Part shown: piece after piece, positions 21,169-64,000 of the stretch
Layout of the letters: every line of letters begins with the position of its first letter
Position numbering within the stretch: the first letter of the stretch is position 1
From: Psammoneis japonica
Taxonomy: Eukaryota
Direction: 5' to 3'
Assembly (NCBI GenBank): GCA_008632985.1
Contig: QPGO01000203.1
Span: 62,001 to 126,000, forward strand
DNA: 64,000 bases
Notes under the pieces: model-generated
Seen by the model: only the letters and a program-made list of their open reading frames with translations
Database searches by the model: none
What the model was told of the DNA's origin: nothing
Translations under genes and position numbers: made by a program

Positions 21169-21720
21169 CTTGACACCCCGTTGTTGACAGCAATGTTCTT
21201 GCAAAATCGAATTTTGGAAGAGATATGGAAGGGTAAACAGCTTGAAAAATGATTCCCTGCATCGCGCATAACATAACAGAGGCAATCTGGAATCCTGCGA
21301 AAAAGAGGCAGGCTGTGCACGACTTAACAGGTCATTCTTCAAAGTATTTATTGGGCGTTTATTTAACCGAAGTCATAAGTGTACATAGGGGCGGACAGGT
21401 GAGATCATGAAAAAGGTCACACGTGACATCATCCGTTCCGCGTTGTGCCTCATCATCACATCTTGAATCTCTGTTTCAAACATCGCTCTCTCCACTCTCC
21501 AGAGAGAGTAGCTCTCTCTCTACTCTCTACCTAGATTCGAAAGTAGGTACAGTACGTGTGTAGTACGCTCTACTAGAGAGAGCTGAGTCACGGAGAAAGG
21601 AGAAGAAGAATAGTCTTCGGTCTCAAGTCATCCAATGGCGTCTCACATGACCACCCAAAACACGAGGATCCTGGTTACCGACGCGAGTTTTCGCTCCAAC
21701 TTGAGAAAGAATTCCACATT

Positions 21721-22578
21721 CTATTGATTGTGCTTGCCGTCGACGTTCTCCTTGGCGAATCGGATCAACTCCTCAGCAACTTGCGCTCGAATGCCGCCAT
21801 CAATCAACATTGCGCAGAGCAGCGTGGAGGTGGCTGCGAACGATTCAAGGGTCATGTCCAACACTGCCATATCCTCCAACGACTGGATTTCTGTATCCGT
21901 AAGAGAGCAGAATAGCTCGTGGCTCCGTATCAAATCTCGAACGATAAAGCATGAGTCACTATTATTGGATGCTTCAGCCATGGATGGTGGTACGGATGGC
22001 GGCGTTTCGTCCCCCACTGCTAACCTTACTTGTTGTCATGTGAGACGTGGCCTGTAAGTCTCCATTCTCACTCAAAACGGGATCATCGACTGGAAACATT
22101 ATATCGGTTCGCAAGATGTACTTTTTTTTCCAAACTTGAGTGGTATGCTGGCGTGATACAGATCGTGTTCAAAGACAACCACTCTCCAGTTTGAGGCGTA
22201 ACCATTGTGCAGCAAGAAGACTGATTGTTCCTTGATCCGCACTTCCCGCCGATGCATGCTGATGACGATGTAGTAGTCGACACGTGATGGTTCAAGTATT
22301 GCGTCTCGCCACCATCAAAATTGACTCCGTTTCCATCATTAAGATAAAGCAACACCGTCAAGAGAGACTGCGTCTTGTTGGGTAGGAATGTAGTTGCATC
22401 AAAATGTGGCTCAAATCGATCGTCCTTGTCCGCATCATACTTTAGTAAACAGAACTTTGGATTCAGACCACAAGGCTTCTTTCCAAATCGTTTCGTCAGA
22501 ACAGCATCCAGATGCTCGAGATTCTTGAGTTTCTGCCACAGCAAATTGAGCATGGATGGGTTATAAAAGACTGCCAAT
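21721..22578 (-). pseudogene. 2OG-Fe(II) oxygenase (prolyl-4-hydroxylase-like) copy 1, 5'-truncated and frameshifted
   Basis: Near-identical to 26672-27520. FEPHFDATT...LLYLNDG...GGET is retained. Indels lie near 22185, 22125 and 22040, and homology ends at about 22578. Confidence 0.9.
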
Positions 22579-22799
22579 TATTACATCTCGCAGTGGAGTC
22601 TCTGCTCTCTACTCGCTGCAACAAATAGTGAGTCCATTTCCATGAGGAGCTGGATACAGCCCATGGTACAAACTTAGAGACAACGGCACCAGCGCCATTG
22701 TCGAGAATCAATCATTAGATTTTGATGCGCTCTGTAGGTTCCACGTAGAAGTAATACTATACATCTCTCCCCAGCGTTTGAATTAAAATTTTTGACCCG

Positions 22800-26107: not shown

Positions 26108-26500
26108 GGTCCTCTTCTTCCCCTCCACTCTACTTACAGTAGAGAGAATTTTACAGCAGCTCTAGAACCCTACTGTAGACCCTACTCCTGGACACACACA
26201 CGCTTCGCGGACATCATTGGCAGATACAACACTAACTGCAGCTGAAATAAGGCTAAAGAACATGTACACGGCCACGGTTATGTCCAGATTCTTGAATAAT
26301 GTCTGGAGTCCTGCTGCGTAGGTCCAGAAGACAGTGCTGCCGGGAAAAGAAAGGCACGTCGGGTCGCAGAACTGGACCCCGGTTCTGGATAGAGAGCGCA
26401 TTGCCTGACTCTAAGGGTCCTCTTCTTCCCCTCCTGCCCCTAGACAAACACACACATTTCGCGGGCATCTTTAGCAACTACAATACTGCTCTACTCTAGA
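26108..26500. repeat. Dispersed non-coding repeat starting GGTCCTCTTCTTCCC (one full and one partial copy)
   Basis: Matches 46466-46730. The head motif also occurs at 26416 and 28357. Confidence 0.85.
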
Positions 26501-26671
26501 GAGAGCTGAGTCACGGAGAAACGAGAAGAAGAATAGTCTTCGGTCTCAAGTCATCCAATGGCGTCACACGTGACAACCCAAACACTCGCGGGTTCTGGTT
26601 ACCGACGCGAGTTTTTGCTCCTCCGAAACGTCAAAGAAAATAACTTTGAAAAAGAATAATGATTCCACGTT

Positions 26672-27999
26672 CTATTGACCGTGCTTGCCCTTGACAGTCT
26701 TTTTTGCGACACGGATCAACTCCTCCGCAACCTGCGCTCGAATACCACCATCAATCAACATTGCGCAGAGCAACTTCGAGGCGGCTGCAAACGATTCAAG
26801 GGTCATGTCCAAAACGGCCATATCCTCCAACGACTGGATTTCTGTATCCGTAAGAGAGCAGAATAGTTTTTGGCTCCGTATTAAATCTCGAACGACAAAG
26901 ATATCACTATTTGATGCTTCAGCCACGGATGGTGGTACGGATGGCGGCGTTTCGTCCCCACTGCTAACCTTACTTGTTGTCATGTTGGGCGTGGCCTGTA
27001 AGTCTCCATTCTCACTCAAAGCAGGGCCGTCCACTGGAAACATTACATCGGTTCGCAAGATGTACTTTGTCCCAAACTTGAGAGGTATGCTTGCGTGGTA
27101 CAAATCGTGTTCAAAGACAACCACCCGACCAGTTTGAGGCATAACCATTGTGCAGCAACGAGAGTGATTGTTCCTTGATTCACACTTGCCACCAACACAT
27201 GCTGATGACGATGTAGTACTGGACACGTGATGGTTCAAGTATTGGGTTTCGCCACCATCAAAATCGACTCCGTTTCCATCATTCAGGTAAAGCAACACGG
27301 TCAAGAGGGACTGCGTCTTGTTGGGTAGGAATGTAGTTGCATCAAAATGTGGCTCAAATCGATCGTCCTTGTCCGCATCATACTTGAGTACACGCAACTT
27401 TGGATTCAAACCACAAGGCTTCTTTCCAAATCGTTTCGTCAGAACAGCATCCAGATGCTCTAGATTCTTGAGTTTCTGCCACAGCAAATTGAGCATGGAT
27501 GGGTTATAAAAGACTGCCAATTGATGGGGATTCGGATTCTGAATCTTTACAATATACTTTGACCCATCCATGGCTGTATGAGTAGCCTCCGTCACGTACT
27601 GAAAACCGGTTTGCGATGCCAACTTTATTAGTTCTCTGCACGTTTCCGCTGAAACAAAACTACTCACAGAAAAAGCAACAGAATCACTAGGGTTCTTCAA
27701 ATATCTCGAACATCTTGCTGGAAGTCGTATACTGTCCCAACCATGTACTGTTCTTCTTCTTCTTCGTTTTCTTCTTCGTTTTGATCTTGAGTAGAAGTCA
27801 GCGGACACGTTAAATTCAGCAGCTTCATCAAGGCGTCATGGGTGTTCACCGACGTAGTGGTACTGCTGATTGTACTTGACGATTCCTCGCCAGTCAACGA
27901 TGAGCTATCCTTTAAATTCTCTCTATCTCCATCGACCACTCTTATATTTTCAACCACAACGCAATCTCTTCTTGCGCTTTCGAGATGTTTCTCCACCAT
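26672..27999 (-). CDS. 2OG-Fe(II) oxygenase (P4H-like) copy 2; catalytic domain intact, frameshift near 27750
   Basis: HFD...H...R motif (FEPHFDA; FEHDLYHAS; KYILRTDVMF). The N-terminus MVEKHLES (27999) is out of frame here but contiguous in copy 3. Confidence 0.8.
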
Positions 28000-30070
28000 G
28001 GTTGATCTCCAGAATAAATTGTGTGAAAAAATGAGTGGAAGCTGGGGGACGTCTTCGGAAGTGAGACTGTCGAAGAAAGTTACGTAGAATTTGTACTAAA
28101 ACAGTCTGTCAATCAGTGCGATTGGGTATTTGGGACCTCTGGACAGATCCTACGTGTTTTCTTGTGCGTACAAATTGTACTGGGAAAACCCCCAAACGCA
28201 CTGGCGATCAGACCGCCTTCGACGCTCTCACTTCCAAAGACGCCCCCCAAAGCGCAGAAAGAGCGAGCGAATGAAAGGGTGGACGGACCGTGAAGCACGC
28301 GAACCTATGAATGGTACGCATTGCAATGGCACCCCTGCGATTGCGAGTGCGAACGTGGTCCTCTTCTTCCCGTCCACTCTAGCTCTGGCAGCCAGCAGTA
28401 GAGACTTTTCAGAAGTTCTGCTGGCTTCAGCACATTCATTCACGAATCTGATTCACGATGATTCACAGGGATGTGAAGAGGAATCACCACACAATTTGCA
28501 TCTTTGGAGCATCTTGTTCTTGTCCCCTGCTGCACCTGTCCTCCTCTCTGTGCTGCTGTGTTGTGCAACCTCAAGAGAGGTGCCAGCACCCTTCGTCTTC
28601 CATGTGAATCCTTGTGTCCCAAGTGGCTGCGAGACACTGGCCAGCAATGCACATGCCAGCAATCTCACAGCATGGCTTTTGCTGCCGCCAACCATCTCAG
28701 TGACATCCCACCCAACAGCAATCTTCTGCATTGCAGTCCTTCATTCCTCAGCAATTGGCATCTGTGCATTCTTGTGCTTGTGGGCTGTCTTCTGTGCATT
28801 TTGTGAGCCCCACGGAGAAGCATGTCTGCTGCTGGTGATCTCGCCACACTTGAAAGTTGATCTGGAAACCCTTGAGAAGTTTGCCAAAGCCTTTGCAGCT
28901 GCAGGCTCACTTCTGACACTCCTCCAAGTCTTTCAACACCCAACTGCAGTGGAAACCACATGTCCCATGGTGCTCATTCATGCAGTTCTTGATCAACTGA
29001 CCAGCACAACAGACCATCATCTCAGCACACTCATGGTGCTCATCCGCGCAGTTCTTGATCAACTGACCAGCACAAAATGACCATCATCTCAGCACACACA
29101 TGCCTCCTGCTGCTGCTTGATTTCAGCATCATCATCCAAGTGCTTTCAATTTAAGTTGGAGCAACCCCTTTTGTGACAAACTTGCACACCACTGGCTGCC
29201 TTGAAGCTGAGCAAACAGACTGAGCTGTCCAACAACCCAGGAAGTGCCAAACTGAACAAAGGTCATTTTGTCATGACTGTCCAAGACCTCGTCAAGTCTG
29301 GCAAGAAACCTTTTGTCATCTCAAGGACATTGATCGCAAAGCAGCACATTTGTCCAACTGTCTTTGTGCCTTTGCAGATTGTGACCTCCTTGACTGTCTT
29401 TGGAGTGCTGCACCTCCATTTGGTGCAGAAATGTGGTTTGTTGTTGTCATGTGCAGTGCAAAGAGGAGTTGCTTCACAACTTGCATCTCTTCAGAGCATC
29501 ATTGATCCTTGTGTCCCAAGCAGCCTCCAGCTTCAAGCTTGCTCATCCTTGCCAAAGCATTGCCAAATGCTCACAAAGCTTGCACAGCTGGACCATGTGT
29601 TTGCAAAAATGAGACAACCACCATGATCACCCACCCTCCCATTCTTGTGAGTGCCACGACAAGACAGCCCATCACAACAAGAGCCTTGTGGGCAATCAAA
29701 GATTGGGGCATGCTTGGTGGCATGGTCGCCCAATGCAATGATGCTTTGTGCTCTGACCTGTGATCACAATGATGTGCTCTCTCTCAAATGAACAAACAGA
29801 ATTGGCACAGCCAATTCTCTGTCAGATGTGACAAACAAAAAACAAGAGTGGCCAAGGTGGAGCTGCTGGTTCGGACATTTGTCCAATGTTCAACAAATGG
29901 CAGAAACAACAACATTGGCACCAAAGTCAGGAGCAGGACTTTCGTGGTGGCTTCATCAGCAGCCAGCTGCTGTTGTTGACATGGTTGAGGTTGTTGCATT
30001 AAAAAGATCCAAGTGGTGGAGGAGGACAGGCAAGTGGGCTTGATTGATTGTTTTTTTTTCATGTCAGCTC

Positions 30071-30072
<2 letters not shown>

Positions 30073-30106
<34 letters not shown>

Positions 30107-30126
30107 NGGGGGGGGGGGGGGGGGGG
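30073..30126. repeat. (CT)n microsatellite, an N and a poly-G run (probable assembly join)
   Basis: Seen directly, with N at 30107. A second (AG)n lies at about 36092-36113. Confidence 0.9.
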
Positions 30127-31959
30127 TGAGATGTGAAGATTGCAGCAAGACAAGAGGTTGCCAAGTTGCGTGATCGATGGCACACACCCTCCATTTGTTG
30201 CTCTGTGTTTGTCAGAACTTTGCATCCCACTCCCTCTTGAGGATGTGTGCTTTGGGTCCAGCATGGGCTGAGGATTCCATCAAAGGTCAAGCAGGTGGCA
30301 GAAACAAGCACACCACATGCTGTTGACACCATGGCAGCAGGAAGACTCTGAGAGTCATGTCCAAACAATTGTTCTCATTGGTTTTTGGAGGCAGAGAGGG
30401 ACAAGGGGAGCCAGCAAGCACAGTTGGGGCATGTGGCTGTGAGGACATCATTTTGCAGATTGCAGAGAATGGTGAAAAGCTGTCTGTGCCAGCAATTCAA
30501 AGACAGAGGGTGCGCTCATTGTCCCCAGCAGTTGCCACATGCTGCTGTGAGTTGTGCCAATGGCACACACAAACACACAACTGGTTTTGACAAACAACCA
30601 AAACATCATGAAAAAAAGAGAAAGAACATGACAGTGGGTCAGCAAAGTGGTGGCAAGAAAGGCACAAGTCAAACTTGCAGCTGGGGGGCAGAGAGCAGCT
30701 GTTGCAACTTGCAGGCTGACAAAGCAGCATGTTTCTTCAACAACATTTTTTCACTGCCCTCCCCTTTCTCCTGACTCCTGTTGTTGGGATTTCATGGCTT
30801 GATGGCTGCTGATCTGCGCTGGTCTTGCCAATCCCTGAGCTCACTGCATGGTGGATTGCAAACTCTGCTCCATGCCAGTTGTCATGTTGCCCTGGTGCAG
30901 AAGCCAAAAAGTGAGCATGAGACCCACCTTCTTTATGATGAGCTTCCCCAAGATTGCTTTGTCAATCTCTGACATGGTTGCACCACCCAATGGATGTTCA
31001 GGCTCCTCCACAACATTTTCTGAGATGCCAGTGCCTGCATCTCTAGCCTGAACTTAGAACACTCTTCTGACAGTGTTGGGTGTCAGATCGTCACACAACA
31101 GGTGCGGAGTTGTAGAGCACAACGTCTCACACACCATGGTGGTGCATCATTTTTTGTGTCAGCATCAGTTGTTCACAGTTCGTTCACGGTGTGTGCAAGC
31201 AAATCTACAATGGTCTGGCCACCTCTGCACGCAACATTTTCATCTGTGTGACACAGAACAGTGAGGAAAGCTTGTGTGACAGATGATGTTGAGTTTGGGC
31301 AATGCAATTTTCTCATGTTCATCACCTGCAAAAGGAAAAGGGGGGAAGGAGGGGATTCAACCATTTGAGCACACAAAAATTGACCATGTGGTCAGGGCCA
31401 GAGTTTTGTTGGCTTCTTCCATGTCATCTGGGGTGGGATTGCTGCAGGCTCAAAAGGTGTGGGTGCACATTGCAACTTTTTAGGGTGGCCCACCCTGAGG
31501 GTGTGCCACCAAGCTGAGCACCCCAGCTTGGTTTTTGCCCAAACCCCAGGCCAGCTGCCAGCCCCAGGAGGTGCTCTTCTCCCAGTGTGGTTTGGCTGTT
31601 CTCAAGCTGCACCACATTGATTCAAAGCCTGCTGCTGCACATGGGAAGGGCCAGAGGGAGAAGAAAAACATGCAAGTTTTGGCTGCTTGCTTTGGACCTT
31701 GTGTTGGTCATGAGCAAGCTGCATGACAAGACAGACACATGTCACACTGTTTGTCTTGCAGCTCCAGGAGCCTGCATCATTCTCAAGTTTGATGTGTCTC
31801 ATCTGGCAGCTTGGCAGCTTGGCAGACTTTCTTTGTTGCAGCCTGGCAAGTCATGGGGTGGGTGGCGCTGTTGTCAAGAGCCACTCCTCTGCAGGAGAGG
31901 GACAGGCACAGAAAAGTTTTGCAGGAGCTCTTCTGCCAATCAATGGCCAGTCAGGGCAG

Positions 31960-33120
31960 ACCAGACTGTGGAGATTTTCTTTTGATGAAAGCCAAGCAGC
32001 CACAGCAAGAGAACAATCATCAATGGCCGCAGCAGCCTGGGCAGTGGGATTTTCCTTTGATGATGGAAAAGCCAAGCAGCCACAGCAAGAGAAGATGCTT
32101 TTGTGATGGAGCATCAAATGGACAAAGCCTGGGTGTGCAAAGAGTTGTTTGCCCCAGCTCCAGCAAGCCATGTGCTCCAAAGGTGACACTGCACACATGT
32201 TTGTGCACCAACATGCCTCTTGTTTCAGGCCCTGTGTGTTGATGAGCAAGCTTCTGAGAGAAGAGTGAGAGGTGCAGCTGCATCACTGTGTGATGCTGGA
32301 GAGACTCATTGCAGCTGATGCATCTCAGGTTTCATGCTCAGCATGATGCTCAGTGACTCTTCTTGGGCCCAACCTCACTCAGAGCTTCTTTGTGTCAACA
32401 ACAAATTTTTCCACAGCACTGACAAAACAGCTTGAGGAAGCCTGCATGGAACAGGAGCTCTGACCAGCAGCTCTGGCTTTGACTTGAGGGTGGGATCTTC
32501 ACAGCTGTGGCATCTGTCAAGCTGGCTCTCTCAATTGTGAGGGGCTGTGGTCATGTGTGGGGTTGGGCAGTGCAGCCAGTTTGCTTGCACTCCTCATTGA
32601 TCATGGCACAAAGCACTGTGTCACATCTGCAAAGATGAGGGTGACTCTTGTGGGTGCTGGGCTGGTGTTCTGAAGGTCTGGGTGCACCCCCTGGGACACT
32701 GAGGAAGGGCTCAGCATTGTGCTGGCAGCAGCAGCTTGGCATGCAGTCTTGGCTGCAGCTTGGTGTGTGGGCAGCACTGTTGCTGCCAGGAGCTGGTCTG
32801 TGGGAGGAGGGGGGGAAGCAGGCAGAAAACTTTTTCTGGAGCCATTTTGTCAGTGGTGAGGATGGCCTGGACACTGAGGATTTTTGATGGAAGCCAAGCA
32901 GCCACCACAAGAGAAGATGATTGTGATTGAGCATCTGATGGACAAACAAGCCCAGGCACAGAGAGCTGTCTGCACTTGGTTCCAGCAAGCAGAGTGCTCC
33001 AAAGGCAACACCTTGTGTGTGCACTTGTGTGCCAACAAGCTTCAAGCTGTGAGTCACAAAAAAGCCACCAACCTCCATGAGTGCAGCAAGTCTTTGGTGT
33101 GCTGTGTTTGCCTCTGTTGA
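31960..33120 (+). pseudogene. Decayed gene with duplicated CCCH-zinc-finger-like segment
   Basis: About 31970-32220 and 32875-33045 are similar. The second reads AVCTWFQQAECSKGNT, like C-x7-C-x5-C-x3-H. Confidence 0.4.
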
Positions 33121-33299
33121 GTGTGGATTGAAAGGAGGCTGCAAATTTGAGATGAGTTGACTCATCTTTGCAAAAAACAAGGTGTGCATCATCCGCTTTG
33201 ATGGGACGCCAATGCAAAAATCTTAAAACCAGCACTGTTGCAAGCACTGGACAGAAAGAGAAACCCAACCAAAGTCATTTCAAAATGAACATAAAAATG

Positions 33300-35950
33300 C
33301 TGCAGTTGACTGGCACTGAGCAAAATGCATTGATGATTTTGCCCTTGACATCCTGTTTTGCTTGTTTGACTTCACTTGTGCCCAAACTCTGCATGAGAGC
33401 AAAAATGTCACTCAAGGCTCATCACCACCCCACTTGGCTTCATTCACTTTCAAGTCAAAAACAGCAATGGGTTGTGAAGTTTGTCATCAACTGGCCACCA
33501 ACATGAAAATTTCTTTGTCTGTGTTTGTGACAAATCGGAGTGGTGGTCACTGCTGTCAAAAATGCCTCTCTGTGTGGTGAGTCACATTGCTTTGGCAATC
33601 CATTCTCAGATCCAGCTGGGTGGAGCAAGTCTGCCACACACTTCTTGTCCCACCCATCATTGATGAGAGCAGCCTTGGCTGCCTTCCCTCCATCAGCTTC
33701 TGTCACATGAAGCCCTCTGATGGCATTTGGTTCTGAAAACTGTGCAAGCTTTTCAAGGGAGTTTGCCATGGTTGAACAAAACTGCTCCAGTTGAGAAACA
33801 GGCAGAAGCCTCAATTTCATTCAAGATGCTGTGAATGGCTGTGTGCTGTGTTGCATTGGAACAGTGACACATGTTGAGGCCCTGCAATTGTTGGCGACAG
33901 TTTTGATTGTCAGCTGTGATCAAGAAAAAAAGCAACTATTCCATTGAGCAACATGCTCACCCCAAATCCCAAAGCAGAGTTGGGCAACATGGGCATGCTG
34001 TGTCTCACACTTGTCCACTGCCCATGCTTTAGAAAGTTCAAGTCAAAATTGCTTGTCATGCCCAAATCCACAGACAAATCCAAAAAGAGCCAGTGTGTCC
34101 ATCTTGCTGTGTTGTCCATTCCATGGGGGCAAAACATGCAAGCCCACCAGATTGATCTGTGGGTGCATTGGCATGTTTGAGGCAAGTGCAACATCTCACT
34201 GTTTGAGTTGTGATCCATGCACAGCTGAAAAGCAAAACATGTTCTGTCTCACATGTTTGGCATTTGCTGGAACTTCATTGTCTTGATGCAGTTGCTCATG
34301 TCAAACAGCAACACCTTTGTGCCCCATGATGCATCCAAAATTGACATGTCTTTTTTGACAATGAGTGCTCTGCAAGGCTCCACTTGATGAAATTGCATGC
34401 TGAAGCCATCAATCTTGAGCTCTGCACAGACTTGGGGGTCATCAGATTGATGATGCACAGCAGATCTGTCTCTGAATGTCACAAAAGGCACTTCTGTTTT
34501 TGATTTTCTTTGGTGGAGATGTGTCCTGTCCAAGTCCCATGCCAAGCTGCTTTCTCACAAAAAAGGGGCTGCCTGCTGGCAGCCTTTTCTTCACCAGTGC
34601 ATGGAGACAACACTGGCAGCTCCAAAGACATCAAAAGCAGCAGCAAGGAGCCTTTTCTCCTGTGCAATGCTCCCTCAATTGACATGCTTTCACAAGCCAG
34701 CTGCTTGTTCCTGCAGAGCCAACATCATGAAAACAACTCTGTTGCTCATCTGACAGGCTGAAAGGTGCTTGGATGTCATGTCAATGTCAACATGCCCTGC
34801 CATTGATCCAAGGCAAGTCAATGATGGGTCAAGCAGCTGACAAAACGAGGATTCTTTGATTGGCAAATGAGGCACATGGCATTGCATGATGGAGTGGAGA
34901 GCTTTTGCCCTGTGCTGTGGGTCCTGCATCCCTGGTTGTGGCAGCCCAACACATGATCCATTGCCCATTGGTCTGTGCATGTCGACATGGGGCAGAGGCA
35001 GCAGTGGTGTTTGGGCCAAAACACCAACACTCCACCACTCTTCAACATGCATGCAGCCAATGACTGGCCAACAAGGCATTGTCCTTCCAAGTGCACACTT
35101 GTCTGCCCCCTGGTCCACCTGCTCTTTGCTTGTTGCTTGGGTCAACATCACCATTGTCAGTGTGTTCTTGAGTGTTTTGACAGCCTTTTTTGTGGGGGTT
35201 TTTGTTGCCAGAACATTGTGGAAAAGAACAAACAAAACACCACTTTTTCCAAATGCAATGAGCACAGCTGCCATGAACTCTGCCACAATGCTGCTCCCAT
35301 GCCTGTCTGGACAAAAGAGAACAGCAAGCCTCACTTCTTTGGGCAGGTTTGATGATGACTCATTGGCCTTGGTTTCGTGCTGGCAATCAATGGGTTGGTG
35401 TGGCAACTCATGTTTTCACCAAATGGCTTGCAAGCTTGTGGATGATGAAGCTCTGCATCTTGCCATTGACCACATGCATTGTTCAGAGCTGCTGGTGATG
35501 TGGCCAGTCAGACATGAAACATCAGCTCATCAAATGTCCCTTCTTCCTGCCACCAGACAAGGACAGTCAGGAACCATCCATTGAGCTGACAGCATTGACA
35601 TTGAAAGAGGGGTCATTGATGACTCTCCTCTTGGCAAAGATTGTGCAGACATTGGTGGTGCACTGGTGCAACACAAGAAACAGCAGCCTCTCCAGAGACA
35701 ATGACCAAGCAAGAATGTGAGCAGCTGTGGAGAATCATCTGCTGGCTTCAGCCAGTGTGCCCCTGCAGAATTCTGCAGGCGAATGAGTTCAACATGTCAG
35801 CCGCACTCAGATCATGATGTCAACAAGGTGTCAAGAAATCTTTGCACACCCCTTGGATCTTTTAACCCAACAACTTCAACCACACACAAACAACAGCAGC
35901 CATCAGATGATGAAGCCACCAGGACAAAAATCTCATTCTCCTGACTTTGG
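33300..35950 (-). pseudogene. Hypermutated relic of a long unknown gene (VEEWW and GHVDIDMTS motifs)
   Basis: Chain of minus-strand ORF pieces (34690..35406, 34249..34545, 33910..34218, 33455..33820). The 5' part is paralogous to 37800-38070. Confidence 0.45.
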
Positions 35951-37559
35951 TCAATGTTGCTGTGCCTGCCATTCACTGAAAAAATGGCTGGACAAACATC
36001 CAAATGAGTGGCTCTGCCTCAGATGCTTGTGTCTTTTTGCATGTCACACGTGGTGGAAAATCAGCTGTGCTGATTCTGTCTGTTTGTTCAAGAGAGAGAG
36101 AGAGAGAGAGAGAGCAGAGCCTTGCCTTTGCAGGTCTCAAAGCAGCCCCCAGTTCTGACAGGAGCACATTGAGTCAAAGCATCGTTGACTTCACTCTCTT
36201 TTGACTCCAGCACCAACAGAATGAATGAGAGCTGCCACATCAGAAAATGGAGCTGAGTGATCAAGAGACAGCACTCTCTGATGTGGGGTGCCAACAATCT
36301 CTGGGAACATCTTGTCCCCCACAGCCAAGGGTCCCTGGCTCAAAACTGAGCATGCACTCTGCTCTTGATCCAAGACATTGCCATCTTGACAAGTCTAAAA
36401 TTGTGAGAAATTTGGAAACAACAAAAGCCAGTCAGCCAGTTTTGACAAATTTCCACCTCTGCATGACACAAGTGGTGGTCTTGCTCATGGGCACTCCCAA
36501 ATTCTGAGCATTGTTTGCCTCATTTTCCTCTCCACTCAAGTGCTCTCACAAACAATGTGTGCCAAGTTTGATTTTTCTCTTCTCTAAAATTTTGTGCCTG
36601 TGGCTCACCTTTTGCATTTGCGCTGTTGCACCAGTCACCAGTGCTGCAGCTGGCTTCTCATTGAAGACTCTCTCATTGAAGACTCCCTGGAGACACAAGC
36701 TCCAGTCCTGCACAATGCACAAAACAAAACACTCCATCTTTTGAGCACAACTTGCATCAGCTTCATGTGCTGAGGCTGTTCATCAAAGACACTTGTGTGT
36801 TCTGGCTTTTGCATTTGATTGGAGCATCGGTGCTCAGACATTTTTTTCCCATTTTTGTTCAAGTTTTCACAGGGTGCACTGTGTCACAAATTTTTTCTGA
36901 AGAAACAATGCAGCTGGCTGCACATCAGCACACTCCCATTGCAGAGAATTTTGCATTGCAAGCAGATCACTGCTGTGAAACACATGTGCAGAAACATTTT
37001 GTGTCAACCTCCAAACATGCAATGACACATGAATCTTCAAAAATTTTGGTTCAAATCATCCTCTGTGTTGCAACTCTCATTTCCCACAATGAAAAAATGT
37101 TGATTGCACACAAAAACAACAACATTGTGACACTGAGACACAAGTCTCATCAGTGTTGCAAAACATCAGAATTTGGACAAATCCACACTTTTGGCAGTGA
37201 AAGCTTGTTTGCAAGTCAGAGACCCCATGCAAAAATTTTGCAAATGTTGTTTTTGAGCACCACTGAGCTCACAACAGCAAAGTCATCAAGCAACAAACAT
37301 GCAAACAATCACCAACAGAAAATGAGGCAATTTTGCAAACATGTCTCCTCTCCCCCACATTTGAAGCACATCATTTCCATTTTTTCCCTGGGTGCACTCT
37401 TTGGACATTGAAGAGTGTGCCCAGCCTGTTTTTGCCACTGTGAGTGAAGAAAACAGAAAGTCTTTGAAACAGGCAGAAGACCCCACACACAGAAATTGTG
37501 TGATCCAAAACACTCTCCTGACATGTCACAGCCAGCACAGCAGTGTGAGCCCCCACCTG

Positions 37560-38300
37560 GAGCTGGAGTGTGTCTGACACACAAAGAAGTGACAAGAGCA
37601 ACTCATGAAGAGCATCTCACATGGGGCAAGATTTCAATGATGTCCTTGAAGCAACGGGGGAAAGGAGATCTGGTGGTGAAGATGACACAACACAGTGCTG
37701 CTGCTGCTGTGATTTGTTGGGAACTCACAAAGGAGCAGCAGATGCGATGGGCACTTGGCTTCATGCAGCAGCCAACAGGTTGGCACGACAACATGCCACA
37801 TCTTGGTTGCCATTGACAACAGATGTTCCTTCCTGCCACACCAGACGAGGACAGCCAGGAACCATCCCTTGAGCCAACAGCATGGACATTGAAAGAGGGG
37901 CCATCGATGTCCTTTTTTAAAAAAAGATCGTGCGGACATTAGTGGTGTGTTGGCACGACAAAAAGAAATGATGGCCTCCCTTGATTCGACCACGCGAAAA
38001 TAATGTGAGCGGGAAAGGTTCAGTACACCCCCCGTACAGTACGTAGAATTCTACAGGCGAATCTTTGAGGTCAACACTGAAAACAGTATGGTAGGCTCTG
38101 GTATGTTCATATCGGTACAATTGTCAGTACGTAGAAGCGAACGATGTTGCCCGGTAAGTGACGTTGTCTTTCCGGAATACAATATACGGGGACAAAGAAT
38201 AATAAACAAAATTGAAAATTTGAAATCAGAAGTTCTTCCTCCACCGACAAGACTAACTGACGACCTGAAGCATGATGCACATCATGGCACTTTGTACGGA
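37560..38300 (-). pseudogene. Paralog of 35400-35950 straddling the right edge of the depleted domain
   Basis: Clear nucleotide alignment of 37825-38062 with 35540-35784. SPVEFY vs SPAEFC and TTNVRTIF vs TTNVCTIF. Confidence 0.7.
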
Positions 38301-38487
38301 CGGTAGAGAGCAAAGGAGTGTTTCAGTTTCTGTTTGCAGCACTACTGTATCTTCAAAAATATGTATCTATGTAAATATGTATTGGTTACACGGATCCAGT
38401 TAGTTCCTCCAGATACATGTCTTTTTGCCGAAAAGAGCGCATCCTTGAAACCGATCTGTCGATGAAGAAAATTGTCACCCACGCGAC

Positions 38488-40307
38488 TTACAAGGAAACG
38501 TGACGAGGAACAATAGCAGCACGATGGTTGAAATGATACTCCGGTTCTGAATCGTCATCAAGCTTCATCCATCCTTCGTCTTCCTTTTCCTTGGCGGAGC
38601 TGTTGCTGTTGCTGAGTCCTTGAAAGGTGAATTCGGACGAGCGCGAGGCAAAGAGAGGCGGAAGAGGCGACATGTCACTGCTGCTACGACGGGCCAGCAA
38701 AAGAGGAGGTGCCACTGGTGCTTTTTTCGTAGTACTACTGTCCGTGGAGCCTGTCTGAGATGCGGGTGATAGTACCTTTGACCAAACACTTGGTTTCTTG
38801 GGGGGTCGTCCCATCCGACGAGAAGCTTGATTGTGAAAAGAAGGAGGGCGGAGGAGGACACTTCTTAGAAAAAGCTGGGCTACTCGACGATACCTTCTTG
38901 GACCATTCTGAAGAACTTGTGTAGGAAAGAAAGGGTGGAGGAGCAAGACCTGCAGGAAGCTTGGCATGAGCTTGCCCACGGCCCGACGACGCCTTGTTTT
39001 TGTTCCAATCCATAGAGCTCGCTTTCTCCAGGAGCGGTGGTAGTGGGCAATTCGATACATTCGTAACCCAATCAGAAGAGCTATTCTGTTTGAGCAAGGG
39101 TGGGGGACAACTGCTGTACTTGGAAGGGCTGGTACTGGGCACCTTTTTTGACCAATCGGATGAACTCGTTTGAGCAAGAAACGCCGTAGGCGGGGGACAC
39201 GACAAATTCTTGGCAAAAAGTGGGACTCGTCGTCAACTCCTTGGCCTTCTTCCAATCCATGGAGCTTGATTGGATAAGCAAGGGAGGAGGAGGAGCTGCG
39301 GTATTCTTTGTGACTGGACTGGACACCTTCCTGGCCCACTCGAACAGATTGGACTACGCCAATAGAGGAGGAGGAGGAGGAGGAGGAGGAGGACAGTCGT
39401 TTTACGTCGACATGCTACTTGACACGCTCTTAATCCACTCAGAAGATGTGCTAGAAGTGGTGGAGGCAATGGACAATCCGGATCCTTTGACGGACTCGAC
39501 ACCGTCTTGGCCCATTCCATAGAGCTCGACTGCGCTAGTAGCGGAGGGGGCGGAGGACAGCCGTTGACCTTGGGTGGACTCGCCGCTACAGTGGCCCAAT
39601 CTCAAGAACTTGCCTGTTTTAGCAACGGTGGTGGTGGAGGAGGACCATGATTGGGCGTAATGGACGCCGCCTTGACCCAATCAATGTCGGACATGCCGCG
39701 ACCTGTTGGCTGATGAGGCGAAGGATGCCCTCCCGAAACGACCGCGGCACAACTTGCTGGCGGACGTGGCGGAGGAGGAACGCCATTCTCATAGCCGGAC
39801 TCACAGCGTACTTCTGGACAGTATGAAACTTGACGAAACGGAGATAGTTCCTGCTGCTGTTCACGGGTGCCATGAGGTTGGTCTTTAGCCGCAGGATCTT
39901 TAGACTCCTCTTCGTTCCTTGTCGTACTATCAAAGTATGATACTTGTCGGTGGCCGCGGGGCGTCGTTCTTCAGAATACCGTGCAAGTCCGTCCTATTCG
40001 GAACAAGTTTTCTTACCCTCCCGTACAAATCTAGAAGCAGTCCATGCAATGGTTCCATGCTTTGCGTGCTATAAACAAAGTCACAAACGTGGTCACGGTA
40101 CGCCCTTTTCATTGTGCTATTTGCGTCGTGCGATGCCGCGCTCAAGGTCGCCGAGAAGTCGTCAAACGATGGTGTCGCAGGTGTGGCGCTTCCCGAGACG
40201 GTTAAGCTCCCAAAACAAGCCTCGTCCGTGAACAGCACACGGTGAATGAGCTTGGGATCCACCGCGGATAAGGCGTCATCCCTTGTGGTCGAAGATGACG
40301 ATTCCAT
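38488..40307 (-). pseudogene. TCP11 (T-complex 11)-like N-terminal domain followed by Ser/Pro-rich repeats, with stops and frameshifts
   Basis: KLIHRVLF...TMKRAYRD...LLLDLYGRVRKLVPNRTDLHGIL. Downstream SSS(D/M)W.KK...CP.PP.L repeats are split across frames. Confidence 0.55.
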
Positions 40308-45589: not shown

Positions 45590-46311
45590 GTCGTTTCCGT
45601 CATTCAGGTAAAGCGTGCTGCGTCTTGTTGGGTAGAAATGTAGTTGCATCAAAATGTGGCTCAAATCGATCGTCCTTGTCCGCATCATATTTGAGTACCC
45701 GTAACTTTGGATTCAGACCACAAGGCTTCTTTCCAAATCGTTTCGTCAGAACAGCATCCAGATGCTCTAGATTCTTGAGTTCATGCCACAGCAAATTGAG
45801 CATGGATGGGTTATGGGTTGTGAAAGACTGCCAATTGATGGGGATTCGGATTCTGAATCTTTACAGTATACTTGTACCCATCCATGGCTGTATGAGTAGC
45901 CTCCGTCACGTACTGAAAACCGGCTTTCGATGCCAACTTTAGTAGTTCTCTACACGTTTGCGCTGACACAAAACTGCTCACAGAAAACGCAATAGAATCA
46001 CTAGGGTTCTTCAAATATCTCGAACATCTTGCTGGAACCTGTATACTATCCCAACCGCGTGCCCTTTCTTCTTCTTCTTCGTTTTCTTCTTCGTTTTGAT
46101 CATGAGTAGAAGTCAGCGGACACGTTAAATTCAGCAGCTTCATCAAGGCGTCATGGGTGTTCACCGACGTGGCACTGCTGATTGTACTTGACGATTCCTC
46201 GCCAGTCGACGATGACCTATCCTTTAAATTCTCTCTATCTCCATTGACAACTCTTATATTTTCAACCACGACGCAATCTCTTCTTGCGCTTTCGAGATGT
46301 TTTTCCACCAT
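45590..46311 (-). pseudogene. 2OG-Fe(II) oxygenase copy 3, 3'-truncated and frameshifted
   Basis: Matches 27265-27999. A short insertion near 45811-45820 gives a stop, and homology ends at about 45590. Confidence 0.9.
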
Positions 46312-46465
46312 GGTTGATCTCCAGAAATCGTCGGGAAAAAATGAGTGGAAGCGCAGAAAGAGCGAGCGAGCGAAAGGGTGGACGGACCGTGAAGCACGCG
46401 AACCTAATATGAATGGTACACTCTACATACAATACTAAGCACCCCCGAACCCCCGCGAATAACTT

Positions 46466-46730
46466 GGTCCTCTTCTTCCCGTCCACTCTAGACTTCTCAG
46501 CAGCTCTAGAGACCTAGACCCTACTTCTAGACATACAAACTTTGCGGACATCTTTAGCAGCTACAATACTACAGCTGGAATAAGGCTAAACAACATTTAC
46601 ACAGCCACCCTTCTGCCTAGATTCTTGGATAATGTCTAGAGGCCTGCTGCGTCGCTCGAGAAGACAGTGCTGTCGGGGAAAGAAAGGCACGTCGGGTCGC
46701 AGAACTAGACCCCGGTTCTGGTTATAGAGA
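46466..46730. repeat. TA-intact copy of the dispersed repeat at 26108-26400
   Basis: Shared GGTCCTCTTCTTCCC...AAAGAAAGGCACGTCGGGTCGCAGAACT.GACCCCGGTTCTGG. Confidence 0.85.
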
Positions 46731-52638: not shown

Positions 52639-53003
52639 CGTGGACTCTAGCTACTAGTGTTTGAATGGATTGTAACAACAAGCGCAGCGAATGCAAAATC
52701 TTCGGTGGCGCGCAAAAACCTTGGGGCCCATTCGGGCACTGTGAGAACAGCACACGCCGCCACTGCTACCGGTATCATCAAGCCCTAAAAAATCATAACC
52801 GAATCATCACTCTTGGGCGATGCGATGCATGTTCGGTGTGCGATGCTGCTTTCATCCTCTTGCCATCAGAGCAGCAGAGCAAGGCATACATACCGTGATC
52901 AGAGGCTGAGTGATGCGACATTACTGAACGCACCTCGAAAACGACAGGTCATCTTTCCGTCCGTCCCTGTCACGCCCACAACAGCCAGAATCCCCGGTTG
53001 GCA

Positions 53004-54254: not shown

Positions 54255-54998
54255 GTCAGAAAATGTTGTTCCGAAAACCTTCGTTCGGAAGTGAAGTATG
54301 GTCACGCCTACAATGCTACATACCGGTATTGTAGGACGCCTTGGCGGAAAGGTACTCTCACGTTTCATACTTCTCAACGGTATGTACAGCGCAGAGTCGA
54401 ACGTTTTGCTTGCGCCTTTGCTTATGTTCACTTTGGTCCTTGCAGTTTATAATCTGTTCTTTTTTAGAGAATAACATGCATCGACGCATTTGGAGCCTAC
54501 AAGGAGCAATACTGAGACCGAAGAGGAAGGGCATTGCGCTAATGAGAAAATGGAGCATGGAGCAACTGTTGGTATTATTGCTGGGATGAGGAGCTTCGAT
54601 AAAACGGCACGCACGTATAGATAGAGTTGTAAGGGCTTGTCGGCCACGAGTCGGCTGCAACGCCATGTCTGAATCAGAGAAGAAGAAGACACGACAACAA
54701 ACTCAGCGGCCGATGCTGATGACGCTGACATGCCGACACTGCTCAACATGGTGACGGCTTCTTGCATTCCAAAAACATGCTCTGTAATAGCATTCAATAT
54801 TCAGTTACATCTCACGTTGACTAGCATAGTACTCTACAAATAAGGCTAGCAAAGTAGATGACAAGGGAACCGCCGACTATTACAAATTACTCTCCCTCGT
54901 GCTCATCGAGGGAGTATTAGTATTCCTAGTTTCAAACAAACACACATAGTCGATTGCAGCTCTACCGGTACGAGCTTGATGGACGTCGACATCGCGAC

Positions 54999-56004: not shown

Positions 56005-56215
56005 GGTGGATGATGATTGTACGGATATGATGTGCAATGGACTCGTCGCAAAGCGAAAATTATGAGGGCAAGGAATGAGCAGACTGAATGAGCAGTCACG
56101 GGAAATTTGCCGACATGAGCAGTCTTCTTCCGTAGAACTTGTACCCGCTTCTACGAATTCCTATCTCAACTGACATTTTTTGCAGCGACCGTTTCATTCC
56201 AGCAATTCAAATCTT

Positions 56216-62523: not shown

Positions 62524-64000
62524 TGTTGGAAATGGTGAATTAAAAGTTCAAACACCGAAATCAGATAGCACGAAGAAGACGCATGCGTCAGCGCTCATCA
62601 TGTGCTCCACGTGAAGCACTAAAACTGCCGATGGAAGCAGTCATGTTGTTCTCTTTTAACTCTTAGAAAGCATTGTGATAACAAGCTTGTCTATTTTAGC
62701 CTCAGGATCAGACCTTAGAGGACTGAGGTGGCTCTGGAATGGTCACCAGAAGGACAAATTACAACAGTTGAAAGAGAACAATCCAGCTGAGAGCTGTGAA
62801 AAGAAAGCAAGAAAGAAAAGAGTCGCTCTCACGGTGTGTGAGACATTTTGCTGCTTTGCCTTTTTTATCATGAGTGGAAGAGGCAGAGGAAGAACTGGCA
62901 ACAGAAGCCAAGGAAGAGGACCCTCAGGAAGGGGAAACAAGAGAGCGGCAAGCAAAGCCACAAGGGCATCAATCATTGTGTCTGCTGTGTTGGAAGTGCC
63001 AAGCAAGCATCTGATTTTCAGATTGCTGCTGAGTTCATCATCAACTACATTAAGAAGACTTGTGAGTTTGGAAATGACATTGCAACTGCACTCAACACTT
63101 GCACTCCATGCGACATGAGTTCCAAGAAGCCGACTTTGCAGGTCAGCTTGGCTGGAGAGGACAAGGCAGAAGAGGTGTTGAGCAAACAGTGTGAAATTGA
63201 ATTTAAGACAGAATTTGATGCTCACATTAAGAGGACCCAGACTCATGAGAACAACCTTGTCAAGGCTTGTGCTTTGCTCTGGGAGAGATGCTCCAAGGCC
63301 ATGAAGAACAAGATTCAAGCAAGAACCGAGTTCCAAACCAAAATTGAAAACGATCCCATCGAATTGCTCAAGGCCATTGAGGAGCATGCATTGAACCATC
63401 AAGAGCACAGGTGTGACATGGCCATCATCTCAGATTCAATGAGAGCTGTGCTGGAAACCAAGCAGAAGGAGAAGGAGAGTCTCCGAGATCACACCAAGAG
63501 ATTCAGGGTTGCAAGAGACATCATAAAGTCTCACATTGGAGGACCAATTGTCCTTACCAAGGCAGTGCAAAGCATGTCAGAACATGACGAGCACAATGCA
63601 GATGCCATCAAGAAGTGTCAAGAAAAGGCGTTCAGCCAATTGATGGGTTACGTGCACTTTGAGAATGTAGACCAGTGCAAGCATGGATCAATTCTGACAG
63701 GATTGAACACCCAGCAGTCCCTCAAGAATGACCAACATCCCAAGTCTGTTGCAGAAGCCAACACGGTGTTGAGCAACCACACTTTTGACTGCATTGGTCA
63801 GCCTGATGACAACCGCGACAGGAACAATTGAAGCAACAACTCTGACTCCAAGAAACAAGAAGAAAGCCAAGAAATCATGATGTCCTTTGCTCAGTTAGAA
63901 GGCAAGTGTTGTTGCTGTGGCAAGGCCAGACACAATTCCAACAAGTGCTGGGAAAGGCCAGGAAAACCTCAAGCAGAATGGGCCATCAACAAGGCCAAAG
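62524..64000 (+). mobile_element. Left end of a Ty1/Copia (diatom CoDi-like) LTR retrotransposon with degenerate gag
   Basis: Candidate LTR TGTTGG(62524)...ACAACA(62766). gag starts at ATG 62870 (MSGRGRG), frameshifts, then reads GSAKQASD, LLWERCSKAM, DPIELLKAI, KQKEKESL.D.TKRF. In-frame TGA at 63829-63831, then zinc knuckle CCCCGKARHNSNKC. Confidence 0.88.

What the first reader, a model, noticed from the sequence alone, without database searches (positions are those of the whole stretch)
35540..38062. Internal before/after pair showing TA->TG/CA and CG->TG/CA directly
Seen: 37923-37946 AAAGATCGTGCGGACATTAGTGGT vs 35636-35659 AAAGATTGTGCAGACATTGGTGGT differ by CG->TG, CG->CA and TA->TG. 38042-38062 CGTAGAATTCTACAGGCGAAT vs 35764-35784 TGCAGAATTCTGCAGGCGAAT differ by CG->TG, TA->CA and TA->TG. 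All six differences in these two segments fit the two rules. At protein level SPVEFY becomes SPAEFC. Inference: the depletion is acquired by mutation and depends on position, since the copy outside the domain keeps TA and CG.
Basis: seen in the sequence. Interest (0 to 1): 0.88.

Follow-up and report, generated by a model that had tools for sequence, protein, structure and literature searches.

The report
Diatom repeat DNA purged of TA/CG
In a diatom genome, a 9.5-kb block of repeat-derived DNA has had nearly every TA and CG letter pair mutated on the spot to TG or CA, a type of targeted hypermutation that my literature searches did not find described.

Summary
The window comes from a diatom.

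**The block.** Positions ~28,407-37,985 hold 15 TA and 42 CG where ~370 and ~542 are expected. TG and CA are raised by exactly the missing amount. A second such tract (62,760 to the window end) is the 5' part of a Ty1/copia retrotransposon.

**Direction of change (TA/CG to TG/CA), three lines:**
- Where copy B lies outside the block, 8 of 10 of its TA/CG sites are TG/CA in copy A.
- Repeat pairs inside the block carry TG opposite CA at 14, 11 and 6 sites (chance about 2). Five outside pairs carry 0-2. So each copy was converted independently, in place.
- Of 18 tyrosine codons conserved in 122 relatives of the copia protein, 14 now read His (CAY) or Cys (TGY).

**Reality.** Read-derived contigs reproduce the mosaic at full depth and cross the edge, so it is real DNA.

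**Mechanism.** Best reading: a RIP-like or silencing-linked hypermutation, 50-150 times background, confined to repeat DNA and fading over ~130-300 bp at the edge. The enzymes are unknown. The A:T to G:C change at TpA has no known counterpart.

Seven literature searches found no prior description.

The parts
28407..37985 (.). Depleted block 1. Within 28460-37899 there are 15 TA and 42 CG in 9,440 bp (about 370 and 542 expected), and CA/TG are raised to 119/115 per 1000. It has no recognisable coding content.
   Evidence: for composition. Pfam on six read-through frames, 0 families. HMMER on a 1060-aa frame, 0 hits; 41 copia polyproteins, 0 tblastn hits here.
35531..35794 (+). Copy A of the ~255-bp repeat, wholly inside the block and fully converted (no TA, one CG at 35780).
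37820..38076 (+). Copy B of the repeat, straddling the right edge. Its left part is converted or mosaic. From about 37985 rightwards it keeps TA and CG. Other genomic copies run on past 38077 into sequence like 35821 onward, so B is truncated there.
   Evidence: tables 5c and 8
37650..37985 (.). Graded right edge. Surviving CG at 37655, 37745, 37786, 37846, 37905, 37929, 37933, 37956 and surviving TA at 37918, 37940 are interleaved with sites already converted (37837, 37875, 37948, 37954, 37969, 37972).
29777..30026 (+). Arm 1 of an inverted repeat inside the block (partner 35839-36098). Of 247 aligned bp, 49 are transitions and 15 transversions, with 14 TG-opposite-CA sites (chance mean 2.1).
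35839..36098 (-). Arm 2 of the in-block inverted repeat.
32017..32219 (+). Direct repeat inside the block (partner 32847-33043). Over 190 aligned bp there are 11 TG-opposite-CA sites (chance mean 1.9).
32847..33043 (+). Second copy of the in-block direct repeat.
28964..29102 (+). 66-bp tandem duplication with 0 TG-opposite-CA sites and 18 shared TG/CA steps. It was duplicated after conversion.
31044..31230 (.). Small, less-converted island with 4 TA and 6 CG in about 190 bp. It may be a later insertion or a protected spot; this was not resolved.
28250..28407 (+). Last stretch of the left flank that is homologous to 46349-46515. The homology stops at the left edge of the block.
28043..28250 (.). 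Roughly 200-bp very high-copy element. The summed contig depth is 9,732 in its 400-bp bin, against about 50-66 for contigs matching the block once. It is absent from the paralogue at 46.35 kb, and it is unconverted although only about 200 bp from the block.
62760..64000 (+). Depleted tract 2, running off the window end. It has 11 TA and 15 CG in 1,241 bp (49 and 71 expected) and is the 5' part of a Ty1/copia-type retrotransposon.
62848..63831 (+). Gag-like ORF of the copia element. Homology reads through the TGA at 63829 and continues to 63999. Of 18 conserved Tyr columns, the query has His (CAY) at 8, Cys (TGY) at 6, Phe at 3 and Tyr at 1.

Best explanation
A block of repeat-derived, non-coding DNA in a diatom chromosome, and a nearby Ty1/copia retrotransposon, have been hypermutated in place. 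Almost every self-complementary pyrimidine-purine step (TpA and CpG) has been changed by one transition to TpG or CpA.

**Shown.**
- The changes run from TA/CG to TG/CA.
- They happened independently in each resident copy, after the copies were in place.
- Neighbouring sites took their outcome (TG or CA) independently of one another.
- The action stops within about 50 bp at the left end of the block and fades over about 130-300 bp at the right end.
- G+C content is unchanged, because gains at TA offset losses at CG.

**Inferred.**
- The per-dinucleotide rate is about 50-150 times the background transition rate. The process is therefore either still running or recent.
- The target is defined by the silenced or methylated state of repeat DNA. 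This makes it a RIP-like genome defence, or a by-product of that silencing.
- Chemically, the most economical scheme is deamination of the amino base of each step: C or 5mC in CpG gives T, and A in TpA gives hypoxanthine, which is read as G. It would act on either strand, one site at a time.
- An alternative single-enzyme scheme is oxidation of the two 5-methylpyrimidines (T in TpA, 5mC in CpG) followed by mispairing.

The enzymes are not identified.
For: **Depletion and budget.** Searches give 15 TA and 42 CG in 9,440 bp. Outside, the rates are 39.2 and 57.4 per 1000. Converting every TA/CG of the rest of the window 50:50 predicts CA 118.5 and TG 121.1 per 1000; observed values are 119.3 and 115.0.

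**Polarity.**
- 8 of 10 TA/CG sites of copy B are TG/CA in copy A.
- Of 18 conserved Tyr columns of the copia protein, the query has 14 His/Cys and 1 Tyr. Other conserved columns are kept at 167 of 236. With the first 81 homologues, Tyr was kept at 1 of 17 against 142 of 195 for other residues, Fisher p = 5e-8.
- Loose ends and bridging letters of other genomic copies carry CG where the window has TG/CA (tables 5c and 7).

**In situ and independent.** TG-opposite-CA sites number 14 in 247 bp, 11 in 190 bp and 6 in 164 bp for pairs touching the block (chance means 2.1, 1.9, 1.6). Five repeat pairs outside have 0, 0, 1, 1 and 2 in 284-1004 bp. Runs of outcomes match random order: 7 against 7.9 expected, 7 against 6.1, 4 against 4.0, 6 against 7.2.

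**Rates.**
- If at equilibrium, k/mu is about 53 for CG and 147 for TA.
- From the 4.3% non-rule transitions per lineage, the lower bounds are 60 and 75.

**Targets are repeats.** 929 contigs of run X1 lie on 27500-39500 at 80% likeness or more. Tract 2 belongs to roughly 1,600-aa polyproteins; 19 of 41 carry PF07727 and several are named reverse transcriptase by their sources.

**Real DNA.** X1 contigs at depth 50-66 reproduce the mosaic: 653 nt and 809 nt with 0 differences, and a 980-nt contig across the right edge with 5 differences.

**A possible enzyme family.** Diatoms encode DNMT4 enzymes related to fungal RID, of unknown function (passages read in PMC9998398).
Against: - No enzyme, methylation state, chromatin mark or timing could be examined. 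No whole genome is held.
- All read data come from one sample and one study, probably the one the window was assembled from.
- No natural enzyme is known to me that gives A:T>G:C at TpA in double-stranded DNA (recalled, not tested).
- The block has more GC steps (73.5 against 57.9 per 1000) and fewer AT steps (54.5 against 65.6) than the simple conversion model predicts. Either the source DNA differed from the rest of the window or a further weak bias exists.
- None of 121 relatives of the copia protein with 8 or more of the Tyr columns shows the signature (at most 2 Cys/His each). Generality beyond this genome is not shown.
- A roughly 200-bp very high-copy element next to the block is untouched, so repetition alone does not mark a target.
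- TA and CG do not behave identically at edges. In block 1, residual CG is enriched in the two 600-bp rims (11 against 4.5 expected, P = 0.007) while TA is absent there. At tract 2 the order is the reverse.
Confidence: 0.6

Rival explanations
1. Passive decay with no dedicated defence. The block is long-standing methylated heterochromatin. CpG is lost through ordinary 5-methylcytosine deamination, and TpA is lost through a separate chromatin-linked mutational or repair bias, for example a modified thymine or adenine that mispairs. The two processes only share the domain.
For: - The CG>TG/CA half is the classic signature of methylated DNA (established knowledge).
- Outcomes at neighbouring sites are independent, as expected for slow site-by-site decay.
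- The counts fit a steady state.
- TA and CG differ somewhat at the edges.
Against: - The required rates are about 50-150 times background per dinucleotide. That is well above the roughly tenfold excess recalled for vertebrate CpG.
- No passive route to TA>TG/CA is known to me.
- TA and CG are depleted to similar degrees in both tracts: 96% and 92% in block 1, and 77% and 79% in tract 2. Their left borders coincide within about 60 bp. Both points suggest coupling.
Confidence: 0.25
2. Editing before integration. The repeats were edited as RNA or cDNA (ADAR-like A>I with a 5' U preference, APOBEC-like C>U) and then inserted already mutated.
For: ADAR prefers a 5' U, which would give UA>UG (recalled). 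Tract 2 is a retrotransposon.
Against: - Copy B is converted on one side and unconverted on the other, with an interleaved zone between.
- Copies inside the block were converted independently.
- A post-conversion tandem duplication shows the order of events in place.
- Both strands are hit equally: TG 115, CA 119 per 1000.
- AA, CA and GA are not depleted.
- ADARs are confined to animals (recalled).
Confidence: 0.03
3. Artefact of sequencing or assembly. Modified bases in this domain are misread (A* as G, C* as T), and the consensus picks a strand at random at each site.
For: - Such an artefact would also be confined to a domain and give about 50:50 TG/CA.
- All read data come from one sample, possibly the source of the assembly.
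- The sequencing platform is not on record.
Against: - Strand-specific misreading would make each read all-TG or all-CA. Instead, 31-mer-based contigs reproduce the fine TG/CA mosaic exactly at full depth (0 differences over 653 and 809 nt), and one contig crosses the edge.
- Conversion is partial and graded at the rim and in tract 2.
- A tandem duplication copied the converted state.
Confidence: 0.03
4. Selection, or foreign DNA that is intrinsically free of TA and CG: avoidance of a TA- or CG-reading nuclease or methylase, or a horizontally acquired segment.
For: Motif avoidance by selection is common in phages, as several earlier scan notes describe. None of those notes concerns this genome.
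Against: - The block has no detectable coding content to select on.
- Conversion destroyed 14 of 18 conserved tyrosines of the copia protein.
- The dinucleotide budget matches plain conversion of local DNA.
- Contig depth equals that of the flanks, and a contig bridges the edge.
- Unconverted copies of the same repeats exist in the same genome.
Confidence: 0.02

Closest known systems
Repeat-induced point mutation (RIP) of Neurospora and other fungi (RID/DNMT4-dependent)
   Same: It mutates repeated DNA in place by massive transitions in a dinucleotide context. It leaves a sharply bounded tract of skewed dinucleotide content, ruins transposon proteins, and acts more weakly at the rim of the target. 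Diatoms carry RID-related DNMT4 genes of unknown function (PMC9998398, passages read).
   Different: RIP makes only C:G>T:A changes, mainly CpA>TpA, so it creates TpA and lowers G+C. Here TpA is destroyed, roughly 40% of the changes are A:T>G:C, and G+C stays at 48%. The change makes few stop codons: the copia frame has a single in-frame stop over 62848-63999. Outcomes at neighbouring sites show no strand coherence. The host is a diatom, not a fungus.
Methylation-driven CpG decay (vertebrate genomes; CpG- or TCG-targeted RIP-like mutation in some basidiomycetes)
   Same: CG>TG/CA on both strands, in transposon-rich DNA.
   Different: It has no effect on TpA. Depletion elsewhere is partial (observed/expected about 0.2 in vertebrates, recalled) and not confined to kilobase blocks with edges of about 50-300 bp. 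Here observed/expected is 0.08 for CG and 0.04 for TA.
Hyper-editing of retroelements by ADAR (A>I, 5' U preferred) or APOBEC (C>U)
   Same: Clustered transitions in mobile elements, including A>G after T/U.
   Different: Those act on RNA or cDNA before insertion. They are bound to the element, are strand-asymmetric, and are not limited to one dinucleotide. Here the action is in place, strand-symmetric and strictly at TA and CG.
Thymine hydroxylation (5-hydroxymethyluracil of dinoflagellates, base J of kinetoplastids) by TET/JBP dioxygenases
   Same: It is a DNA-level modification of T, reported with a TpA preference (recalled; the review read does not state the context). The same enzyme family also oxidises 5mC. 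One enzyme could therefore address T in TpA and 5mC in CpG.
   Different: These are modifications, not known to erase the dinucleotides from the genome. No such base is reported for diatoms in the papers found (listing only).

Membership tests
RIP (fungal repeat-induced point mutation) | Only C:G>T:A transitions | tested here: not met
   TA>TG/CA (A:T>G:C) changes are shown by 14 Tyr>His/Cys codons and by TA sites 37940, 38040, 38044 and 38052 of copy B.
RIP (fungal repeat-induced point mutation) | CpA>TpA preference, with a gain of TpA and loss of G+C | tested here: not met
   TpA falls from 39.2 to 1.6 per 1000, CpA rises, and G+C is 48.3% both inside and outside the block.
RIP (fungal repeat-induced point mutation) | Acts in place on duplicated DNA, each copy mutated independently | tested here: met
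   TG-opposite-CA sites number 14, 11 and 6 in three pairs against chance means of about 2. The block is built of sequence with many other genomic copies (929 contigs laid).
RIP (fungal repeat-induced point mutation) | Target defined by repetition above a length threshold | tested here: inconclusive
   A roughly 200-bp very high-copy element at the rim and the last ~100-160 bp of copy B are spared. This fits either a length threshold or a chromatin-defined domain.
RIP (fungal repeat-induced point mutation) | Premeiotic timing and dependence on a RID/DNMT4 or Dim-2 enzyme | not testable with these tools
   No genome is held and there are no crosses. DNMT4 is known in 31 of 60 diatoms surveyed (PMC9998398).
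Methylation-driven CpG decay | CG>TG/CA on both strands | tested here: met
   CG sites 37929, 37933, 37956 and 38042 of copy B are TG/CA in copy A. CG stands at 4.5 per 1000 against 57.4 outside.
Methylation-driven CpG decay | 5-methylcytosine present on the tract | not testable with these tools
   No methylation data are available.
Methylation-driven CpG decay | Only CpG is affected | tested here: not met
   TpA is depleted at least as strongly: 15 observed of about 370 expected.
Pre-integration RNA/cDNA editing (ADAR/APOBEC type) | The mutated tract is bounded by the element and was made before insertion | tested here: not met
   The boundary falls inside copy B, with interleaved converted and unconverted sites. 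Resident copies were converted independently.
Ty1/copia LTR retrotransposon (tract 2 only) | Gag region continuous with a polyprotein carrying copia-type reverse transcriptase | tested here: met
   All 41 longer homologues match the ORF at E of 7e-50 or better, and 19 of the 41 carry PF07727. Sources name some of them reverse transcriptase, from Fragilaria crotonensis and Nitzschia inconspicua. The pol part lies beyond the window end. One of 8 shorter homologues has a weak Retrotrans_gag match, E 0.0013, below the cut-off.

The most novel reading that the evidence does not exclude
Diatoms, or at least this one, possess a dedicated DNA-level editing defence. It recognises silenced repeat DNA and erases both self-complementary pyrimidine-purine steps. 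It would include an enzymatic A:T>G:C change at TpA in chromosomal DNA, by a natural DNA adenine deaminase or a thymine-oxidation route, coupled to CpG deamination. This would be the first RIP-like system outside fungi and the first of any kind that removes TpA instead of creating it.
Probability: 0.4. Interest if true: 0.95.

Novelty: new variant of a known kind. Interest (0 to 1): 0.88.

Why it matters
- **A defence outside fungi.** If confirmed genome-wide, this would show that hypermutation of repeats as a genome defence is not confined to fungi.
- **A use for DNMT4.** It would give the RID-related DNMT4 genes of diatoms, whose function is unknown, a testable role.
- **New chemistry.** It points to a natural activity that makes A:T>G:C changes at TpA in chromosomal DNA. 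No enzyme for this is known, and such an activity would interest base-editing research.
- **Different consequences.** The process removes two of the three stop codons and every tyrosine codon without lowering G+C. It therefore leaves long open but ruined reading frames, which can mislead gene prediction and repeat annotation in diatom genomes.
- **A practical marker.** Absence of TA and CG could be used to map silenced DNA in these genomes.

Tried and rejected
**Coding content of block 1.**
- Pfam on all six read-through frames: 0 families.
- Pfam at E up to 1 on single ORFs: only chance-level matches.
- HMMER of a 1060-aa read-through frame (34871-38050) against 1.84 billion representatives: 0 hits.
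- tblastn of 81 gag-like and 41 copia polyproteins: hits only at 62.9-64.0 kb.

**RNA genes.** Rfam gave 0 matches and tRNA search gave 0.

**More before/after pairs.** Purine/pyrimidine-coded self-BLAST mostly returned chance matches at 73-83%. Only four pairs stood out: the finding's pair plus three in-block pairs.

**Left flank.** Homology to 46.3-46.5 kb stops at the block edge, so it gives no second before/after pair.

**Genome and earlier notes.**
- No whole genome is held.
- Earlier scan notes had nothing for this genome or sequence.
- The word search returned only phage motif-avoidance notes that do not bear on this finding.

**Expression.**
- No RNA holder is listed.
- Run X2, of unknown type, has contigs on both flanks and none on 28302-37925. 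This is not usable as evidence on expression.

**Differences between the window and near-identical X1 contigs.** Of 24 listed differences in the block, 8 fit the rule. About 47% of random transitions in this block would fit it by chance, so nothing follows about ongoing activity.

**The 2OG-Fe(II) oxygenase family beside the block.** It has a 2OG-FeII_Oxy_3 domain and no PDB relative at E of 0.01 or better. I found no reason to link it to DNA modification.

**Third mutational rule.** None was visible among the 9 non-rule transitions in the copia protein.

**Literature.** Searches found no description of joint TA and CG conversion. One search found no report of 5-hydroxymethyluracil in diatoms (listings only).


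Full report
**1. The quoted pair.** The homology is a repeat of about 255 bp, 35531-35794 (copy A) and 37820-38076 (copy B). BLASTN gives 81.7% identity over the best 120 bp. In purine/pyrimidine coding the two copies are 94.5% alike over 164 bp, so transitions dominate. In the well-aligned parts where B lies outside the depleted DNA, I examined 10 TA/CG sites of B. Eight are TG/CA in A, one CG is kept in both, and one TA faces TT. At other aligned positions 13 of 84 differ (Fisher p = 6e-5). The peptide remark is only roughly right: VEFY against AEFC holds, but 'SP' does not.

**2. The setting.**
- The window is eukaryotic and intron-poor, with about 48% G+C. Its eIF2-gamma ORF is 85-92% identical to diatom proteins; named hits include Seminavis, Mayamaea, Nitzschia and Fragilaria relatives.
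- Counts per 500 bp show a block from about 28,400 to about 37,950 with almost no TA or CG.
- Within 28460-37899 there are 15 TA and 42 CG in 9,440 bp, where the rest of the window would give about 370 and 542.
- A second, less complete tract starts near 62,760 and runs off the window, with 11 TA and 15 CG in 1,241 bp against 49 and 71 expected.
- The left border is sharp: the last TA is at 28399 and the last dense CG at 28456.
- The right border is graded over about 37,650-37,985.

**3. A mutational budget, not a foreign composition.** I converted every TA and CG of the non-block window at random to TG or CA. The result has CA 118.5 and TG 121.1 per 1000. The block has 119.3 and 115.0, and the unconverted window has 70.2 and 72.7. 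G+C is 48.3% inside and outside. The fit is not perfect: GC steps are higher (73.5 against 57.9) and AT steps lower (54.5 against 65.6) than predicted. The strand-symmetrised distance to the converted model is 0.037, and control chunks give 0.014-0.018.

**4. Direction of change.** Three lines agree.
- *The A/B pair*, as in section 1.
- *TG opposite CA.* This configuration needs two adjacent transitions. It is most simply read as one ancestral TA or CG converted separately in each copy.
  - It occurs at 14 sites in the 247-bp inverted pair 29777-30026 / 35839-36098 (chance mean 2.1, maximum 8 in 2000 trials).
  - It occurs at 11 sites in the 190-bp pair 32017-32219 / 32847-33043 (chance mean 1.9).
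  - It occurs at 6 sites in the A/B pair (chance mean 1.6, P = 0.0005).
  - Five repeat pairs outside the block have 0, 0, 1, 1 and 2 such sites in 284-1004 bp.
The longer ones are roughly 1,600-aa polyproteins; 19 of the 41 carry PF07727, and some are named reverse transcriptase in Fragilaria crotonensis and Nitzschia inconspicua. It is therefore the gag end of a Ty1/copia-type element.
  - Of 18 columns where tyrosine is the majority residue in the 122 homologues, the window has His (CAY) at 8, Cys (TGY) at 6, Phe at 3 and Tyr at 1.
  - Other conserved columns are kept at 167 of 236.
  - With the 81 homologues alone, Tyr was kept at 1 of 17 against 142 of 195 for other residues, p = 5e-8.
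  - Cross-codon cases fit as well, such as T|ACN>T|GCN (Thr>Ala) and C|GTC>C|ATC (Val>Ile).
  - None of the 121 homologues covering 8 or more of these columns has more than 2 Cys/His there.

Contigs of other genomic copies, laid at 80% likeness or more, also carry CG where the window has TG/CA (tables 5c and 7).

**5. In place, one site at a time.**
- The number of TG-opposite-CA sites in the 247-bp pair (14) implies about 28 converted ancestral sites, or 11% of positions. That is close to the 9.7% that TA plus CG occupy elsewhere in the window. So essentially all conversion followed the separation of the copies.
- The 66-bp tandem duplication at 28964-29102 has no such site and 18 shared TG/CA steps, so it was made after conversion.
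- The order of TG and CA outcomes along a copy is random: runs of 7, 7, 4 and 6 against 7.9, 6.1, 4.0 and 7.2 expected. Neighbouring sites were hit independently and on either strand.
- Within copy B, unconverted sites (CG 37846, 37905, 37929, 37933, 37956; TA 37918, 37940) are interleaved with converted ones up to about 37972. Beyond about 37985 everything is unconverted.

**6. What the block is.**
- It has no detectable protein-coding content and no RNA gene.
- It is built of repeats. 929 contigs of run X1 lie on 27500-39500 at 80% or more, with summed depth 2-70 times the single-copy level in many bins. Their differences from the window are mainly transitions: 103-163 places for each transition type against 17-31 for each transversion type.
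- Its left end is where homology of the flank to the paralogous locus at 46.35-46.5 kb stops.
- On the right, other copies of the repeat continue past 38077 into sequence like 35821 onward, so copy B is a truncated end piece.
- The converted tract therefore equals a repeat insertion block, minus its last ~100-160 bp.
- A roughly 200-bp very high-copy element at 28043-28250, just outside, is untouched.

**7. Real DNA.**
- X1 contigs built from 31-letter words, at depth 50-66, reproduce the block: 653 and 809 letters with no difference, and 972, 1106 and 980 letters with 3-5 differences. The 980-letter contig spans the right edge.
- A strand-specific misreading of modified bases would give reads that are all-TG or all-CA, not the fine mosaic seen at full depth.
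- The caveat is that all runs come from one sample and study, probably the source of the assembly.

**8. Rates (inference from counts).** The block has about 2,212 TG+CA steps, and each can regenerate one TA and one CG by a single transition.
- If the block is at equilibrium, the loss rate per dinucleotide is about 53 times (CG) and 147 times (TA) the background transition rate.
- Independently, 92% and 96% depletion was reached while non-rule transitions reached at most 4.3% per lineage. That gives lower bounds of 60 and 75 times.
- The process is thus either continuing or recent. A single old burst would have left more regenerated sites.

**9. Mechanism.** What is shown is the rule, its direction, its in-place and site-independent action, and its confinement to repeat DNA with a soft rim. 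The rest is inferred.
- I think the most likely scheme is an activity tied to the silencing of repeats that deaminates the amino base of each self-complementary YpR step: C or 5mC in CpG, and A in TpA.
- A second single-enzyme scheme is oxidation of the two 5-methylpyrimidines (T in TpA, 5mC in CpG) with mispairing.
- A third is two unlinked processes sharing a chromatin domain.
- Diatoms encode DNMT4 enzymes related to the RIP enzyme RID, in 8 pennate and 23 centric species of the 60 surveyed, with unknown function (PMC9998398, passages read). That is a lead, not evidence.

**10. Comparison and novelty.** The process works like RIP in that it mutates repeats in place, by dinucleotide-specific transitions. 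It fails two defining features of RIP: C:G>T:A changes only, and creation of TpA. It also goes beyond methylation-driven CpG decay, because TpA is lost at least as completely. Pre-integration editing is excluded by the boundary inside copy B. Seven full-text searches found no description of joint TA and CG conversion in diatoms or elsewhere. I saw only listings and abstracts, apart from passages of PMC9998398 and PMC6313786. The genome paper of this organism, if there is one, was not identified and could hold a remark that I missed.

**11. Limits.** I had one window, one sample, no methylation or chromatin data and no gene inventory. The generality of the phenomenon, its enzymes, its timing and its trigger all remain open.

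Noticed in passing
window 21567-22579, 26488-28042, 45592-46352: There are three paralogous copies (88-91% identity) of a gene with a 2OG-FeII_Oxy_3 domain. The ORF 26672-27808 on the minus strand is 378 aa. One copy directly abuts the depleted block. It has no PDB relative at E of 0.01 or better.
   Followed up: partly
window 28043-28250: This is an insertion of about 200 bp relative to the paralogue at 46.35 kb. The summed contig depth is about 9,700 against about 50-66 for contigs matching the block once, so it is a very high-copy short element, possibly MITE-like. It keeps its TA and CG.
   Followed up: partly
window 54048-56747 and 59293-61740: This is a segmental duplication of about 2.5 kb at 93-98% identity. 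It contains internal repeats of about 80 bp (56216-56501, 61209-61494) and GC-rich, TA-poor ORFs with no Pfam match.
   Followed up: no
window 9432-9919 and 19430-20428: Long ORFs without Pfam matches (8970-10322, 18673-21342) contain tandem repeats in their coding sequence. Local composition is skewed: TA is low but CG is normal, so this is not the same phenomenon.
   Followed up: no
window 30073-30107: A (CT)17 microsatellite is followed by the only N of the window. Read contigs appear cut at this repeat and at 36081-36122.
   Followed up: no
window 63829-63831: A single in-frame TGA interrupts the copia gag-pol frame. Homology continues to 63999, including a CCHC-like knuckle in which a conserved Tyr is now Cys. 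Homologues have N, D, G or S at the stop column, so the stop is not an obvious CGA>TGA product.
   Followed up: partly
window 52998-54254: An ORF fuses a GNAT acetyltransferase domain with a DTW domain. Other ordinary host genes nearby are eIF2-gamma (14389-15705) and a GH20 hexosaminidase (50926-52638).
   Followed up: no
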